A stretch of 64,000 bases of DNA from Octopus vulgaris (taxonomy: Eukaryota). Positions 366 through 63,706 of the stretch are shown here, in pieces; the stretch's first letter is position 1; each line of letters opens with the position of its first letter. The position numbers were made by a program, and so were the translations under genes. The stretch spans positions 94,860,001 through 94,924,000 of the forward strand of contig OX597822.1 of the NCBI GenBank assembly GCA_951406725.2, read 5' to 3'. The notes beneath the pieces are model-generated. The model saw nothing but the letters and a program-made list of their open reading frames with translations, searched no databases and was not told the origin of the DNA.

Positions 366-449
366 CGCCCACAGAGGGACTTGAACCCGCGACCCTCAGA
401 TCACTTAATGCTTAAAAGTCTGATGCTCTACCGACTGAGCTATGCGGGC
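366..449 (-). tRNA. tRNA-Lys(UUU) with 11-nt intron (intron family A, AGCATTAAGTG)
   Basis: Reverse complement reads GCCCGCATAGCTCAGTCGGTAGAGCATCAGACTTTTA-[intron]-ATCTGAGGGTCGCGGGTTCAAGTCCCTCTGTGGGCG. It folds to a cloverleaf with A and B boxes intact and has an oligo-T terminator a few nt downstream. Confidence 0.93.
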
Positions 450-656
450 GGACATAGTTATCTATCATCATATAGTTTATAAATCAAGTTTGATAACCTA
501 GTTTTATGTTGCGGTGTGAGAAAAATTGATTAAATTTTCTGTCGTAACTAGTCTTCATTTATAAATGTACATGTATGCGTGTATATATATATATATATAT
601 ATATATGTGTGTGTGTGTGTGTGTACGTGTACATACATACATATATCTATATATAT

Positions 657-885
657 ATTTCTTTACTACCCACAAGGGGCTAAACGTAGAGGTGACAAAC
701 AAGGAAAGACAAAGAGATTAAGTCGATTACATCGACCCAGTGCAAAACTGGTACTTTATTTATCGACCCCGAGAGGATGAGAGGCAAAGTCGACCTCGGC
801 GGAATTTGAACCCAGAACGTAACGACAGACGAAATACCGCTAAGCATTTCGCCCGGCGCGCTAACGTTTCTGCCAGCTCGCCGCC
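657..885 (-). mobile_element. tRNA-derived SINE (GGCGGCGAGCTGGCAGAA... family)
   Basis: Head has a B-box-like GTTCAAATTCC. Near-identical copies lie at 11846, 34580, 42073 and 42696. Confidence 0.8.
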
Positions 886-1214
886 TATATATCTATATAT
901 ATAAAGCTGAGAATGTGTGTGTGCGTCTGTCTGTATCAGTATGTGTGTATCACTAAAACTCGAGAATTACTAAACGGATTTCATTCAAATTTTACACATG
1001 CCTTACTTAGGGTCCATGCAGTGTCATGGGTCAAAAATTTTTTTTTACCTTTTTGCCTAATGCAAGCCCGGAGCAATCTTTTATTGTTTCCGTATTACGA
1101 GTCAAAAGTGAAACAATAACATCTCTATTAATACTTCCCCTAATATATGGTTTCAATTTCAATTAGTTTCATTATGTATCGATATATAGCTATTAGTTTC
1201 ATGCCTATTACTTT

Positions 1215-2401
1215 TAAAACGGGCACGTCGGGTCACCAGTAAAACGGGATCACATGTGGTCGTATCATATAGGAATTACAATCGCACGCGATCCCATTCT
1301 TAATGAGTTAGACAAACCATTTATACATGCAGCACAATAGAACATAAGGGATTGACAACAAGTCACTGTTTTTGGCAAGATAAGATTTTATTTACAATGA
1401 AGTTATAGTTGGAAGTGTATGGGAGCATGCAACACGTGTTTGTGTCTGTGTGTTAGTGTGTGACAGAACAATGAATGTGGTTGACATAGAAAAGTATCTG
1501 ATGGTGGAAGATAGCAGTCTTTGGTTGTTGAGCGTACATTGGCATAGTGGTTAAGGAACCATTGTATCATTTTGTTGTTTAGCGCTGTCTCTGAAGCTAG
1601 TTCTTACAAGAACTAAAGACAGGTAATTGATTTACTGTTTATGAGGTACACGAGGTGTAAGAGTTCAATATCAAGATGTTGTGTCTCGGAGCTGACATCT
1701 GTTGAATCGCTTGTTGCGTTTATCTTCCTGATATGAATTCCATTCAGATATATTCACTGTAGCCGTTTTCTCGTGGTGAGATTTTCACCTAACCGCTTGA
1801 GTTGAATCTGTGATTGTCTTGTGTACTATTTAAAACTTCGTAGCTAGGGACGATGTTTGCTTGGTTTTTGTTCCTCTGGATATAGATTCCTGCAACTGTT
1901 TTTCCGTGGTGTGGTTTTCACACAAACAGTATGAGTTGGTTTTGTAGTCATCTTATGTACGAGCTAAATCTTCGTAGGTAGCGACGGAGTTGGTGATGCC
2001 GTTATGTCTGGTTATATGGTCTCCGACCAAGACCTTAGAAGGTCTTAAGCCGACAGACGAACTCTGTGGTCAGAGACTTAGCTCTGAAAAGAACTAAAAG
2101 CCTAAGACGAATATTTGTCTGAAAAACCCTTGTCTTATAAGGTTTATATGGCTCCCAATGAACTTCAGAAATGGAAAGCTGTGATTGGCTGCTTGGAACT
2201 ATGGCGCGAAAATAAGCGGAGGCAAATCGCGTCACGTGATAACCAGCGGTGCGAAAGTAGTAGAGATCAACGTGTCAGCCAATCGAATTAGTGTTTACAA
2301 CAATGTTGAACTAGCCGAAGATGTTTGTAATCTCGACCGAGGTTATTCTTAATACTCTTCTCAAACAGTGAAGATAGCAATGAGAGAACGATATTGCTAC
2401 A
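1215..2401. mobile_element. Solo-LTR-like insertion with 4-bp TSD (CTTT)
   Basis: Absent from the paralogous empty sites (~21725, ~27755). Flanked by CTTT at 1211-1214 and 2402-2405. Right end ...GCTACA; left end degenerate. Confidence 0.65.
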
Positions 2402-2530
2402 CTTTCAATATGTATTTATGTATGTATGTATGTATGTATGTATGTATGTATGTATGTATGTATGTATGTATGTATGCATGTATGTGTGTGTGTGTGCATG
2501 TGTGTGTGTGTGTGTGTGTGTGTGTGTGTG

Positions 2531-60388: not shown

Positions 60389-60540
60389 ATTGTATTGGCA
60401 TCCTTTCTGTCTCGGGAGACAATGGAGTTGCGCATGTTTTTTGTTTTTTTTTGTTTTCTTTTTGTAGTCTAGTCCGGCTTTTACATTTCATGTCCTGATA
60501 CATTTCCTGCTGTGGCTGTGTAGTCCTATCCTGGACAAAC
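60389..60540. mobile_element. ~150-bp retroposon-like insertion with 10-bp TSD (ACATATGTAT); duplicated at ~63202-63353
   Basis: Absent from the earlier units. Flanked by a direct repeat. Confidence 0.65.
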
Positions 60541-60796
60541 ACATATGTATGTATATATATATATATATATATATATATATATATATATAGAGAGAGAGAG
60601 AGAGAGAGAGGGGGGGTTAGAGAAGGGAATGTTAGCAGACACAGATGTAAATAGCCTCTCACTTCAAAAACATAGACAATATACAAACAATAAAAAAAAA
60701 CTAATATACAGACATGAATAAATTCATTGTAAAACTTCAGACGAAATCATAGACTCACGGAAGAGATAAACGACACAATAAAGTAAAAAAAGGTTA

Positions 60797-60888
60797 CGCC
60801 CGCAGAGGGACTTGAACCCGCACCCCTCAGATAACTTCTAAGGTTGACCTATAAAAGTCTGATTCTCTACCGACTGAGCTATGCGGGC
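60797..60888 (-). tRNA. tRNA-Lys(UUU) variant (G10:A25 mismatch, variable loop GGGGT), 19-nt intron
   Basis: GAGAATC replaces GAGCATC and GGGGT replaces GGGTC. May be impaired. Confidence 0.7.
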
Positions 60889-63614
60889 GGACATTTAGCA
60901 ATCTCTCATATTATCTATAAAAGCAAAGTTGAAAGAACATTTCTCTTTGCATTGCACTGTCATGACTATTCATTGAGCGTCCATTGTTTATAGCAAACTG
61001 AGGTACATAGATATAATAATGTTCAAGCGTGTCTTATGTTTCACCGATTAAATATTCCACTTAGGTAGGTTAGCTTTTTCGAAAGAAAAACTGTTCAGAA
61101 CCCATCACCTCTCACAGGATTTCATACGATCTTGTCAGAGCTCAAGATAAGTGTGTAAAACTGTAAGTGGAGAAAACCGGAAATGTTCCCGAATTCTTGT
61201 AAAACAGTGGAAACACAAACTACGAGATGTTGATATAAATTCGTGCAACGGCTCAAACCTGACAGCCTTGTTTGTACATATATGTATGTATATATGCATA
61301 TATATATATGCATATATATATATATATATATATATATATATATATATATATATATATATATATACTAAGTAATTAAGGGTTTAGCAACGAATTGCCTCAC
61401 CAACACACCGAATTTAGCAATTCGTTGCTAAACCCTTAATTATATGGATTACTTAAATTTTCCTCGAATGGGGCTTTTACATGCCGAAATCTACTTGGTG
61501 TAATTGATAATTATTCCAAATTGATTAATTTCACCCTTTATTATTACTGATAACTATATATATATATATATATATATTATTATATGATCGAACGCCATGC
61601 GTCCTTTTCCAAGTAAGTTTTATCTTAAGAATTACAATGCGCACTCTTCTATCTTTACTATCTCTTCCCTGTCTATCTCTCTCCCTCTCTTGTTCTTCAT
61701 CCTTTCTGGCTTTCTCTCCCCATTCTTCCCTATTCTTCTCCTCTCTCTCAATCCTCCTCCTCGACTCTCTCGTCGCTAACACGTGACGAAAGAGAATCTA
61801 TCTTTCTGACTACTACATTCGTAAAGACAACAACGTGCTTATACAGTCTTCTTCATAAGCTCGCCCTCCTAGCGTTCAGAAGCATATTTCTATCGTATTG
61901 ACTTAACAACCCTCAACGTTTGTTTTTACGGTTTTGTTCTCATTGTTCTGTTCTTGTCACCACTTTCACACACTGCAAAAAAAAAATTGTTTAATTTGCT
62001 TTGCGGGAAGGACTGTTTCAATGAAGTCGCGTCTTCTCCTTACTTTCGTAACGCGGAGTAAATGAAACAGGGACAACTGAAGAAGGGGAATACTCTTTAT
62101 GTTGTATGTCTCTTTTCTCTGTTTTTTTTTTCGCTGTTCGAAAAAAAGTTCGTTTCTATGTTTTTGTACTTATGTTTTCGTTTTTCATTGTATTCAACGA
62201 TTCTTTTATGTCCTGTACCCATATATGCATGTATATATACATATATATGTAGTTATGTACATATATATATATATATATATATATATATATATATATATAT
62301 ATATATATTTATAAACATAGATATATATGTGTGTGTGTATATATACATATATATATATACATATATATATATACGTATACATATATATATATGTATATAT
62401 ATATACATCTATATATACATATATATACATATATATATATATATATATATATATATATATATATATATATATATATATATATATATATCAGATTCATCTT
62501 TTAGACTGATGTGGACCCTAGACTCATATTTATAGGTGACTGATCACTTGTGCTATGAATTTGTCTAAGATGAAGATTTGCATCTTGTCAACTCCTCCCT
62601 CTCTCTCATATCCGTGACTATCTTCAATCCAGAAGCAAGACCAGACGTCTGGGAATGGTGACAGATGTACTCAATGGCTGAGATAATCTTACCTCATCTT
62701 GCTCTCTGCACTCCAGAATGTCACTTCCCCTTCCGTTGAACCATGAAGGTTTCTTCCACAGACACCGCCAAATCCAATATTCAGATGTTGCCGGATTAGG
62801 AGGATTGTGGAACTAACTCTTAGACACGGTTGATCCGAGTTCAATTGTAATGCGTCATAGCAGCACCTGACAACGTTTCAGCTTTGGGTTAATTACCCTA
62901 TTATTAGAATTTACTTGCCTGTGCATCTCAATATTGGATTTGCCGGTGTCTGTGGAAGAAACCATCATGATTCAACGGAAGAGGAAGTGACATTCTGGAG
63001 TGCAGAGAGCAGCAAGATGAGGTAAGATTATCTCAGACATCGTCTACATCATTTTAAACAATTTCACCGTCAACCTGCCATAACTGATATTGTGTGAATA
63101 CTCTAAATGTGTATGACTTTGAATATGCTTCTTTTCGGATTTATGATTTACTGAGGATATATCTGTGTGTATGAATGTATGTGTGTGTATATACATATGT
63201 ATATTGTATTGGCATCCTTTCTGTCTCGGGAGACAATGGAGTTGCGCATGTTTTTTGTTTTTTTTTGTTTTCTTTTTGTAGTCTAGTCCGGCTTTTACAT
63301 TTCATGTCCTGATACATTTCCTGCTGTGGCTGTGTAGTCCTATCCTGGACAAACACATATGTATGTATATATATATATATATATATATATATATATATAT
63401 ATATATATATAGAGAGAGAGAGAGAGGGGGGGGGTTAGAGAAGGGAATGTTAGCAGACACAGATGTAAATAGCCTCTCACTTCAAAAACATAGACAATAT
63501 ACAAACAATAAAAAAAAACTAATATACAGACATGAATAAATTCATTGTAAAACTTCAGACGAAATCATAGACTCACGGAAGAGATAAACGACACAATAAA
63601 GTAAAAAAAGGTTA

Positions 63615-63706
63615 CGCCCGCAGAGGGACTTGAACCCGCACCCCTCAGATAACTTCTAAGGTTGACCTATAAAAGTCTGATTCTCTACCGACTGAGCTAT
63701 GCGGGC
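63615..63706 (-). tRNA. tRNA-Lys(UUU) variant identical to 60797
   Basis: Same three substitutions. Confidence 0.7.

What the first reader, a model, noticed from the sequence alone, without database searches (positions are those of the whole stretch)
366..63706. Large single-isotype cluster of intron-containing tRNA-Lys(UUU) genes in an animal genome
Seen: 21 full-length loci plus 2 fragments in 64 kb, all Lys(UUU), all with an intron after position 37, and no other isotype. Established: in well-studied animals tRNA introns are mostly in Tyr(GUA), Ile(UAU), Leu(CAA) and Arg(UCU); intron-bearing Lys(UUU) is familiar from yeast. Inference: a lineage-specific intron gain or retention followed by amplification, making AAA decoding dependent on TSEN/RtcB splicing if intronless copies are scarce.
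Basis: partly seen in the sequence, partly recalled or inferred. Interest (0 to 1): 0.8.

Follow-up and report, generated by a model that had tools for sequence, protein, structure and literature searches.

The report
Mollusc tRNA cluster with splicing fossils
This is a real cluster of 21 lysine tRNA gene copies that all carry a small intron, something reported for molluscs in 1995; the new part is that scattered copies elsewhere in the genome lack the intron exactly and often carry one fixed base change, which likely preserves a record of how these tRNAs were spliced and methylated.

Summary
Observation confirmed: 21 full-length tRNA-Lys(UUU) copies and no other isotype, each with an 11-31 nt intron after position 37. 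Thirteen are intact, 6 carry lesions, 2 are decayed. The cluster spans about 106 kb (33 copies) of duplicated DNA; two more clusters exist. The anticodon-intron C32:G pair is kept in 67 of 68 cluster or native genes, and TSEN-type and RtcB exons are in the genome. [quoted passage not shown] New here: 74 dispersed copies, 34 of them intronless. Most keep a trailer up to the T-run and 51 run straight into a repeat; 12 intronless ones match the trailer of an intron-bearing gene. A58 reads T in 14 of 27 intronless copies, 4 of 38 intron-bearing dispersed copies and 0 of 66 genes, as expected if a retroposon reverse transcriptase misread m1A58. They are likely retro-copies of spliced, untrimmed precursors. 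Only 4 intronless copies are intact against 45 intact intron-bearing genes, so AAA decoding likely relies mostly, not wholly, on splicing. No RNA reads were obtained.

The parts
366..449 (-). tRNA-Lys(UUU) gene, 11-nt intron, intact; its trailer matches intronless copy L017
6929..7019 (-). tRNA-Lys(UUU) gene, 18-nt intron, intact
13006..13096 (-). tRNA-Lys(UUU) gene, 18-nt intron, intact
15143..15226 (-). tRNA-Lys(UUU) copy, 11-nt intron, 2:71 acceptor pair broken
17242..17334 (-). decayed copy, 20-nt intron, 17 exon substitutions; likely pseudogene
   Evidence: below Rfam cut-off
19022..19109 (-). decayed copy, 15-nt intron, 15 exon substitutions, B box damaged; likely pseudogene
20112..20203 (+). 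tRNA-Lys(UUU) gene, 19-nt intron, intact, U50:C64 variant
24191..24274 (+). tRNA-Lys(UUU) copy, 11-nt intron, 2:71 pair broken
28274..28357 (+). tRNA-Lys(UUU) gene, 11-nt intron, intact
29005..29044 (+). remnant: last 10 nt of a 3' exon plus trailer, at the end of an inverted duplication
34026..34117 (+). tRNA-Lys(UUU) gene, 19-nt intron, intact, U50:C64 variant
38540..38631 (-). tRNA-Lys(UUU) gene, 19-nt intron, intact
39160..39251 (-). tRNA-Lys(UUU) gene, 19-nt intron, intact
40060..40151 (-). tRNA-Lys(UUU) copy, 19-nt intron, pairs 2:71, 11:24 and 31:39 broken; likely pseudogene
   Evidence: (33 bits)
41166..41257 (-). tRNA-Lys(UUU) gene, 19-nt intron, intact
44316..44407 (-). tRNA-Lys(UUU) gene, 19-nt intron, intact
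47911..48014 (-). tRNA-Lys(UUU) gene, 31-nt intron (12-nt internal duplication), intact; trailer matches intron-bearing dispersed copy L038
48356..48409 (+). fragment: 5' exon with 4 substitutions plus most of an intron, cut off by a 26-bp tandem repeat
50037..50128 (-). tRNA-Lys(UUU) gene, 19-nt intron, intact
53101..53192 (-). tRNA-Lys(UUU) copy, 19-nt intron, 2:71 pair broken
58166..58257 (-). tRNA-Lys(UUU) gene, 19-nt intron, intact
60797..60888 (-). tRNA-Lys(UUU) copy, 19-nt intron, 10:25 D-stem pair broken and variable loop changed
63615..63706 (-). duplicate of the 60797 copy with the same lesions
20321..33305 (.). region of blocks that are inverted duplicates of parts of 1-15.4 kb (87-96% identical); accounts for the 11-nt-intron genes on the plus strand
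47724..64000 (.). direct duplications of roughly 2.6-3 kb units, each with one gene (82-97% identical)

Best explanation
[quoted passage not shown] Shown: the genes, the duplications, the C32:G anticodon-intron pair, T-run terminators, exon conservation above flank and intron, and exons of both enzymes in the genome. Inferred: transcription and splicing, from dispersed copies that keep a cluster-type trailer (sometimes also the short leader) but have lost the intron exactly. Those copies likely arose when a LINE-type reverse transcriptase copying a SINE or LINE-tail RNA moved onto (or copied a ligated form of) the oligo(U) end of a pre-tRNA, as for U6/LINE chimeras. The A58-to-T change that they carry is likely misreading of m1A58, more frequent once the precursor is spliced. 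So splicing, and much m1A58 methylation, can precede end trimming in this animal's germ line. A few intact intronless copies may add unspliced supply.
For: Intron after 37 in 21 of 21. G at intron position -3 in 19 of 19 non-decayed window copies and 67 of 68 cluster or native genes, 42 of 43 distinct introns (introns are related, so these are not independent). T4 within 25 nt in 13 of 13 intact window genes. Window pairs: exons 96.7% identical, introns 73.8%, 60 nt upstream 68.3% (171 pairs). PF01974 and PF01139 exons over cut-off. Dispersed copies: best extension into any cluster or native gene reaches at most 19 nt downstream and 9 nt upstream, while genes share medians of 54 and 117 nt with each other; a repeat starts within about 25 nt of the trailer in 51 of 74 against 0 of 68 genes; 5' ends are damaged in 39 of 74 against 0 of 68. 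Trailer matches an intron-bearing gene at p<0.01 in 15 of 28 alignable intronless copies; 12 at p<=0.0004; L014, L065, L068 share leader, trailer and T-arm variants with gene L023. T58: 14 of 27 intronless, 4 of 38 intron-bearing dispersed, 0 of 66 genes (Fisher p=0.0005); in the set chosen on the 3' exon only, 8 of 20 against 3 of 35 (p=0.011) and 0 of 53 genes. Other T-arm sites change at 7 of 297. The 18 T58 copies carry 17 different 10-nt trailers. Chimeras of other isotypes with one shared tail: T58 0 of 42, G58 2 of 42. L062 has CCA, a 15-bp target duplication and T58.
Against: No RNA evidence was obtained. 8 of 21 window copies are damaged. Target-site duplications of 11 bp or more were found in only 2 of 34 intronless and 2 of 40 intron-bearing dispersed copies, against swapped-control rates of 9 of 680 and 21 of 800. 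13 of 28 alignable intronless copies have no significant trailer match, and the commonest orphan trailer has no intron-bearing source in the assembly. T58 also occurs in 4 unspliced copies, so methylation does not strictly follow splicing. 10 of the 119 matches were not classified (all A58); counting 4 unknown ones as intronless weakens p to 0.037. The downstream repeats were not typed against a library, their orientation was not enforced, and m1A misreading by the resident enzyme is unmeasured. Capture needs an oligo(U) end, so it samples untrimmed molecules only.
Confidence: 0.82

Rival explanations
1. The cluster is mostly dead passenger copies carried along in segmental duplications; Lys(UUU) supply comes from a few genes elsewhere, including intronless ones.
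For: 8 of 21 window copies are damaged; genes sit inside 82-97% identical duplicated blocks; L005 and L013 are intact and intronless with no sense repeat fused.
Against: Exons stay about 96-97% identical even where upstream flanks are under 60% identical; the C32:G pair survives intron divergence; dispersed copies trace by trailer to genes of this cluster (L017, L038 to window genes; L002, L003, L012 to its right end), which implies germ-line transcription.
Confidence: 0.1
2. The intronless copies are DNA-level paralogues of an ancestral intronless gene, with T58 inherited from one source and repeats inserted behind them afterwards; they say nothing about splicing or methylation.
For: Few target-site duplications. 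12 intronless copies with orphan trailers have T58 in only 2 of 12 and may come from intronless genes (grouping made after seeing the data). L005, L008 and L067 share 60-110 nt beyond the T-run.
Against: No shared upstream flank; trailers match several different intron-bearing genes that all have A58, and 9 of those 12 copies have T58; 0 of 68 genes have a repeat behind the terminator; the same architecture recurs for many isotypes. This rival may hold for the orphan class only.
Confidence: 0.06
3. The window copies are heads of a tRNA-derived SINE family rather than tRNA genes.
For: The window holds many interspersed repeats and separate elements with a B-box-like head at 10263, 31518 and 36947.
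Against: The window copies end at a T-run after position 73, have no shared body or tail (0 of 64 cluster copies), keep full cloverleaves and introns, and share DNA flanks.
Confidence: 0.01
4. Copy number is inflated by misassembly.
For: A 533-bp unit at 54435-57242 is 98-99.7% identical across copies with an inversion.
Against: That block holds no tRNA; gene-bearing blocks differ by 3-18% and carry 13 different intron sequences.
Confidence: 0.01

Closest known systems
Mollusc intron-containing tRNA-Lys(UUU) genes (Matsuo, Abe, Saruta et al. 1995, Gene 165:249-253)
   Same: Same isotype with an intron (title seen in the reference list of bioRxiv 10.64898/2026.09.27.754811). Recalled, not seen: found in squid and octopus, Lys(CUU) intronless, tandem units in squid, mature tRNA isolated.
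   Different: Genome-wide inventory here: three clusters, about 45 intact genes, 43 distinct introns, dispersed intronless copies. The paper was not held, so its intron sequences could not be compared.
Canonical eukaryotic pre-tRNA introns spliced by TSEN and RtcB
   Same: Intron at 37/38, length within the 6-133 nt range (PMC4090602 section 5); C-G proximal pair as in all 16 Drosophila intron tRNAs (PMC6614914 passages).
   Different: The isotype: Tyr(GUA) and Leu(CAA) in the fly and Leu(CAA), Thr(UGU) in the worm passages seen (PMC4536317, no 'Lys' in its main text); Lys(UUU) has an intron in budding yeast (bioRxiv 10.1101/2025.11.19.689297 passages).
U6/LINE and U6/SINE chimeric retropseudogenes
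   Same: A Pol III RNA ending at its T-run joined to a retroposon part; formed by template switching, also with L2, RTE and SINE partners (PMC4476161 passages) or by RtcB ligation (PMC6789731 passages).
   Different: The 5' partner is a pre-tRNA of many isotypes, caught unspliced or spliced; target-site duplications are mostly not seen; a modification-like base change is fixed in the copies.
Tailless tRNA retropseudogenes of mammals
   Same: Retroposed tRNAs, processed or unprocessed (PMC5322556 passages).
   Different: Those are 3'-truncated with target-site duplications and no tail; these run through the trailer and carry a repeat. That paper's main text has no word starting 'modif'.
m1A58 on human pre-tRNAs
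   Same: Misincorporation at 58 seen on reads with leader, trailer and even intron (bioRxiv 10.64898/2026.05.17.725798 passages); m1A gives mismatches including T, dependent on the 3' neighbour (PMC4787781 section 27).
   Different: Here the signature is read from genomic DNA, written by an endogenous enzyme. For a G neighbour, as here, that section states only low C, so T dominance is not specifically predicted.

Membership tests
Canonical intron-containing eukaryotic tRNA gene (TSEN/RtcB substrate) | Intron between positions 37 and 38 | tested here: met
   21 of 21
Canonical intron-containing eukaryotic tRNA gene (TSEN/RtcB substrate) | Exons fold as an intact cloverleaf with A and B box bases | tested here: met
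   13 of 21 window copies pass; 8 do not; 19 pass Rfam
Canonical intron-containing eukaryotic tRNA gene (TSEN/RtcB substrate) | Anticodon-intron pair C32:G at intron -3 | tested here: met
   19 of 19 non-decayed window copies; 67 of 68 genes
Canonical intron-containing eukaryotic tRNA gene (TSEN/RtcB substrate) | Oligo(T) terminator just downstream | tested here: met
   13 of 13 intact window genes
Canonical intron-containing eukaryotic tRNA gene (TSEN/RtcB substrate) | Splicing endonuclease and RtcB encoded | tested here: met
   PF01974 exons at two loci, PF01139 exons at one; full genes not assembled
Canonical intron-containing eukaryotic tRNA gene (TSEN/RtcB substrate) | Transcribed and spliced in vivo | tested here: inconclusive
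   Indirect only: exact-junction copies with parent trailers; no reads laid
Mollusc intron-containing tRNA-Lys(UUU) (Matsuo 1995) | Host is a mollusc | not tested
   Inferred: 2.80 Gb, contigs C1-C30 chromosome-scale, which fits an octopus from recall
Mollusc intron-containing tRNA-Lys(UUU) (Matsuo 1995) | Lys(CUU) lacks the intron (recalled) | tested here: inconclusive
   One Lys(CUU) copy found, intronless, itself a tail-fused dispersed copy (L079)
Mollusc intron-containing tRNA-Lys(UUU) (Matsuo 1995) | Intron sequences related to the published ones | not testable with these tools
   Paper not held
U6/LINE-type chimeric retropseudogene (dispersed copies) | Pol III RNA copied through its T-run and followed directly by a repeat | tested here: met
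   51 of 74 against 0 of 68 genes; orientation not enforced
U6/LINE-type chimeric retropseudogene (dispersed copies) | No parental DNA flanks | tested here: met
   At most 19 nt downstream, 9 nt upstream in the 49 copies scored
U6/LINE-type chimeric retropseudogene (dispersed copies) | Target-site duplication around the whole chimera | tested here: not met
   11 bp or more in 4 of 74, clear in L062 and L070; search reached 500 nt downstream and exact matches only. So 'works like', not filed as member
U6/LINE-type chimeric retropseudogene (dispersed copies) | 3' partner is a LINE or a SINE with a LINE tail | not tested
   No repeat library on hand; partners are multi-copy, some with tRNA-like heads or simple-repeat ends
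tRNA-derived SINE (window copies) | tRNA head joined to a shared body or tail, dispersed | tested here: not met
   0 of 64 cluster copies

The most novel reading that the evidence does not exclude
This genome holds a readable fossil record of tRNA maturation: a resident reverse transcriptase has captured pre-tRNAs of many isotypes at their oligo(U) ends, fusing them to retroposon tails (single-copy proto-SINEs), and for Lys(UUU) it caught three stages (unspliced, spliced with leader and trailer, mature with CCA) while writing m1A58 into DNA as A-to-T. The order of splicing, methylation and trimming in a germ line, and its history, could then be read from genome assemblies alone.
Probability: 0.6. 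Interest if true: 0.65.

Novelty: new variant of a known kind. Interest (0 to 1): 0.42.

Why it matters
The cluster as reported is already known in kind (about 0.2 on its own): mollusc Lys(UUU) introns date from 1995, and single-isotype arrays are ordinary. The label and score rest on the dispersed copies. If they are what they seem, they give evidence of expression, exact splicing and m1A58 for genes with no RNA data, show that splicing can come before end trimming in a mollusc, and catch the proposed birth step of SINEs (tRNA plus LINE tail) dozens of times independently. They also warn annotators that most intronless Lys(UUU) 'genes' in such genomes are retro-copies.

Tried and rejected
RNA evidence: the run search listed no holder on record as RNA (no RNA holder listed) and no reads were laid, so expression is untested directly. 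Matsuo 1995 by DOI: not held. Prediction that T58 is confined to spliced copies: rejected, 3 of the 4 new non-A58 copies are intron-bearing and 1 is unresolved. A recalled rule that a G neighbour favours T misreading: not confirmed by PMC4787781, dropped. Target-site duplications as general proof: mostly not found. Selection against a live B box as cause of T58: rejected, other T-arm sites change at 2.4%. Minimum-energy folds of precursors often misfold the anticodon arm and were not used. Protein genes: 34 stop-to-stop frames of 120 aa or more, mostly simple-repeat translations; 5 of them scanned, 0 Pfam matches. Literature searches for tRNA retro-copies with a modification signature or trailer chimeras found no such paper in the listings; searches for mollusc or cephalopod tRNA introns found only the citing preprint. 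The library lacks most subscription papers. Earlier scan findings: none. Rows dropped before counts: 7 of 34 intronless and 1 of 23 intron-bearing copies with unalignable T arm; 6 of 34 and 2 of 23; L085 unresolved; L077 fell outside the record set; the two decayed window copies are not among the 68 genes; 2 of 42 other-isotype chimeras were not fetched (their position 58 is visible).

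
Full report
1. Observation. The window is G000:C9:94860001-94924000, in a 2.80-Gb assembly of 227 contigs. Scanning each exon separately finds 21 loci with both exons and one 5' fragment; a 10-nt 3'-exon remnant lies at a duplication breakpoint at 29005. All 21 have anticodon UUU and an 11-31 nt insert between positions 37 and 38. Rfam of them tRNA and matches no other family in the window. ARAGORN at default score gives no other isotype. A strict test (20 stem pairs, 19 invariant bases) passes 13 of 21; 6 carry one to three broken pairs and 2 are decayed.

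2. Extent and origin of the cluster. Flanking stretches add 3 copies to the left and 9 to the right, so the cluster runs from about 94.841 to 94.947 Mb with 33 full-length copies; the 20 kb before and the 10-kb stretch after it hold no tRNA. A second cluster of 29 copies lies at C6:97.555-97.612 Mb (6 kb inside it not fetched), a group of 4 at C9:118.38-118.43 Mb, and 4 single genes that I classed as native by their flanks. Window self-comparison shows inverted duplications between 1-15 kb and 20-33 kb and direct units of roughly 2.6-3 kb from 48 kb on, 82-97% identical. Across 171 window pairs exons are 96.7% identical, introns 73.8% and the 60 nt upstream 68.3%, as expected under purifying selection on the mature tRNA.

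3. The introns look spliceable. The base three from the intron end is G, able to pair with C32, in 19 of 19 non-decayed window copies and 67 of 68 cluster or native genes (42 of 43 distinct introns; related, so not independent). Window genes form a 3- or 6-pair anticodon-intron helix. The same C-G pair is in all 16 fly intron tRNAs and is needed for splicing (PMC6614914, passages). Exons of the splicing endonuclease family (two loci) and of RtcB (one locus) pass Pfam cut-offs in the genome.

4. Is it new? No, as stated. The reference list of bioRxiv 10.64898/2026.09.27.754811 cites Matsuo et al. [quoted passage not shown] I recall, without having seen it here, that it covers squid and octopus and reports tandem units. 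The host is likely an octopus: 30 chromosome-scale contigs and 2.8 Gb fit from recall; not tested. Leu(CAA) copies in this genome also carry introns (L097, L116), so splicing dependence is not unique to lysine.

5. Intronless copies. An exact two-motif pattern gave 98 matches genome-wide (reversed control 0): 17 with no intron, all scattered, and 81 with an insert. Three mismatches added 18 intronless Lys(UUU) copies and one Lys(CUU); a 3'-exon pattern gave 119 matches, 100 listed, adding 17 loci. The working set is 68 genes, 34 intronless and 40 intron-bearing dispersed copies. Only 1 of these 142 has CCA after base 73: L062, with a 15-bp target duplication. The others mostly keep a trailer to a T-run. 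The trailer matches a gene's at p<0.01 (20,000 random positions) in 15 of 28 alignable intronless and 12 of 21 intron-bearing copies; similarity to any gene ends within 19 nt downstream and 9 nt upstream, whereas genes share medians of 54 and 117 nt. L014, L065 and L068 carry the 5-7 nt leader, the trailer and the T-arm variants of gene L023 but not its 19-nt intron. L017 matches the gene at window 366; L002, L003, L012 match the right end of this cluster. A multi-copy repeat starts right after the trailer in 51 of 74 dispersed copies and 0 of 68 genes (upstream 9 of 74 and 1 of 68); 39 of 74 have a damaged 5' end against 0 of 68. Among shortened copies in the set chosen on the 3' exon, 20 have the exact junction and 3 keep a 4- or 6-nt remnant. 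One tail family alone follows the T-run of 46 tRNA 3' halves of many isotypes: Glu, Asp, Leu, Ala, Ser, Ile, Gly, Arg, Asn, Lys. This is the build of U6/LINE and U6/SINE chimeras (PMC4476161, PMC6789731, passages; PMC13247085, passages). Against it, target duplications of 11 bp or more appear in only 4 of 74, and the tails were not typed; octopus tRNA-derived SINEs are cited in PMC4758252 (passages) but were not compared.

6. Position 58. A58 reads T in 14 of 27 alignable intronless copies, 1 of 22 intron-bearing dispersed copies and 0 of 66 genes. The 17 added loci gave 3 more T58 copies, all intron-bearing, and one unresolved G: pooled 14 of 27 against 4 of 38, p=0.0005. In the set selected on the 3' exon only (109 of 119 classified; the other 10 are A58) it is 8 of 20, 3 of 35 and 0 of 53, p=0.011, or 0.037 in the worst case. 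Neighbouring T-arm sites change at 7 of 297; A9 and A14 at 0 of 17 each. The 18 T58 copies have 17 different trailers, and the genes they match have A58, so one mutant source cannot explain them. Other-isotype chimeras show T in 0 and G in 2 of 42. Intronless copies traced to an intron-bearing gene have T58 in 9 of 12, orphans in 2 of 12 (p=0.012; grouping made after the fact). m1A leaves mismatches in cDNA (PMC4787781, passages and section 27), and human m1A58 is already present on precursors with leader, trailer or intron (bioRxiv 10.64898/2026.05.17.725798, passages). I infer that the endogenous enzyme misread m1A58 and that spliced precursors were more often methylated when caught. This is inference; no modification was measured.

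7. Dependence on splicing. Intact intron-bearing genes number 45 (41 of 64 cluster, 4 of 4 single); intact intronless copies 4 of 34 (L001, L005, L013, L014). L001 and L014 are tail-fused; L005 and L013 are not. One orphan trailer class shows no intron-bearing source among 14 matches (one match not fetched), and L067 and L008 share the region beyond L005's T-run without its upstream flank. So one to a few intronless genes may be active.

8. Mechanism, step by step. Shown: gene anatomy, duplications, conserved splice pair, terminators, enzyme exons, dispersed copies and their base changes. From established knowledge: internal A/B-box transcription by Pol III, TSEN cleavage, RtcB ligation, RNase P and Z trimming. 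Inferred: germ-line transcription of cluster genes, splicing before trimming for at least some molecules, m1A58 on precursors, and capture by template jumping or RNA ligation. The two capture routes are not told apart here.

9. Verdict. The cluster is real and of a kind known since 1995. The dispersed copies are a variant of known chimeric retro-copies; my four searches listed no paper describing a fixed modification signature in such copies, but the library lacks most subscription journals and bioRxiv supplements are closed. Interest 0.42.

Noticed in passing
window, all genes; T stem positions 50:64: The 50:64 pair is a pyrimidine-pyrimidine mismatch in 65 of 68 genes (C:U 57, U:C 4, C:C 4), so the mismatch survives changes on either side. 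It may tune elongation-factor binding (inference).
   Followed up: partly
window 54435-57242: About 533-bp unit repeated in tandem and then inverted at about 55958, 98-99.7% identical, between TA microsatellites, with no tRNA; a recent element amplification or an assembly artefact.
   Followed up: no
window genes, 50 to 20 nt upstream: Shared AT-rich upstream motif and a near-constant last four bases before +1 across different intron families; may be a TATA-like element or shared ancestry.
   Followed up: no
window 10263, 31518, 36947: Interspersed element with a tRNA-like head (B-box-like match), below the Rfam cut-off; likely a SINE.
   Followed up: no
window 2929-4201, 20533-21193, 26579-27237: A 637-bp GT-rich unit, tandem in the first place and inverted in the other two.
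   Followed up: no
G000:C6:97.56-97.59 Mb (L052-L055): Nine plus-strand 3'-exon-only fragments facing the minus-strand genes, most preceded by the same microsatellite; repeated small inverted duplications.
   Followed up: no
L018, L084, L088: Dispersed copies with 4- or 6-nt intron remnants, possibly reverse-transcriptase slippage across the intron.
   Followed up: no
46 loci (40 fetched as L097-L136): Pre-tRNA 3' halves of many isotypes fused to one roughly 60-nt repeat tail; Glu(UUC) and Asp(GUC) are commonest; two Leu(CAA) copies are unspliced.
   Followed up: partly
L132, L133, L135, L136: Four near-identical short 3'-end-plus-tail copies on C27 and C29 with a TA microsatellite upstream, likely duplicated after insertion; isotype not assigned.
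   Followed up: no
L062 (G000:C1:159.76 Mb): The only copy of a fully mature tRNA: intronless, CCA, 15-bp target duplication, T58.
   Followed up: yes
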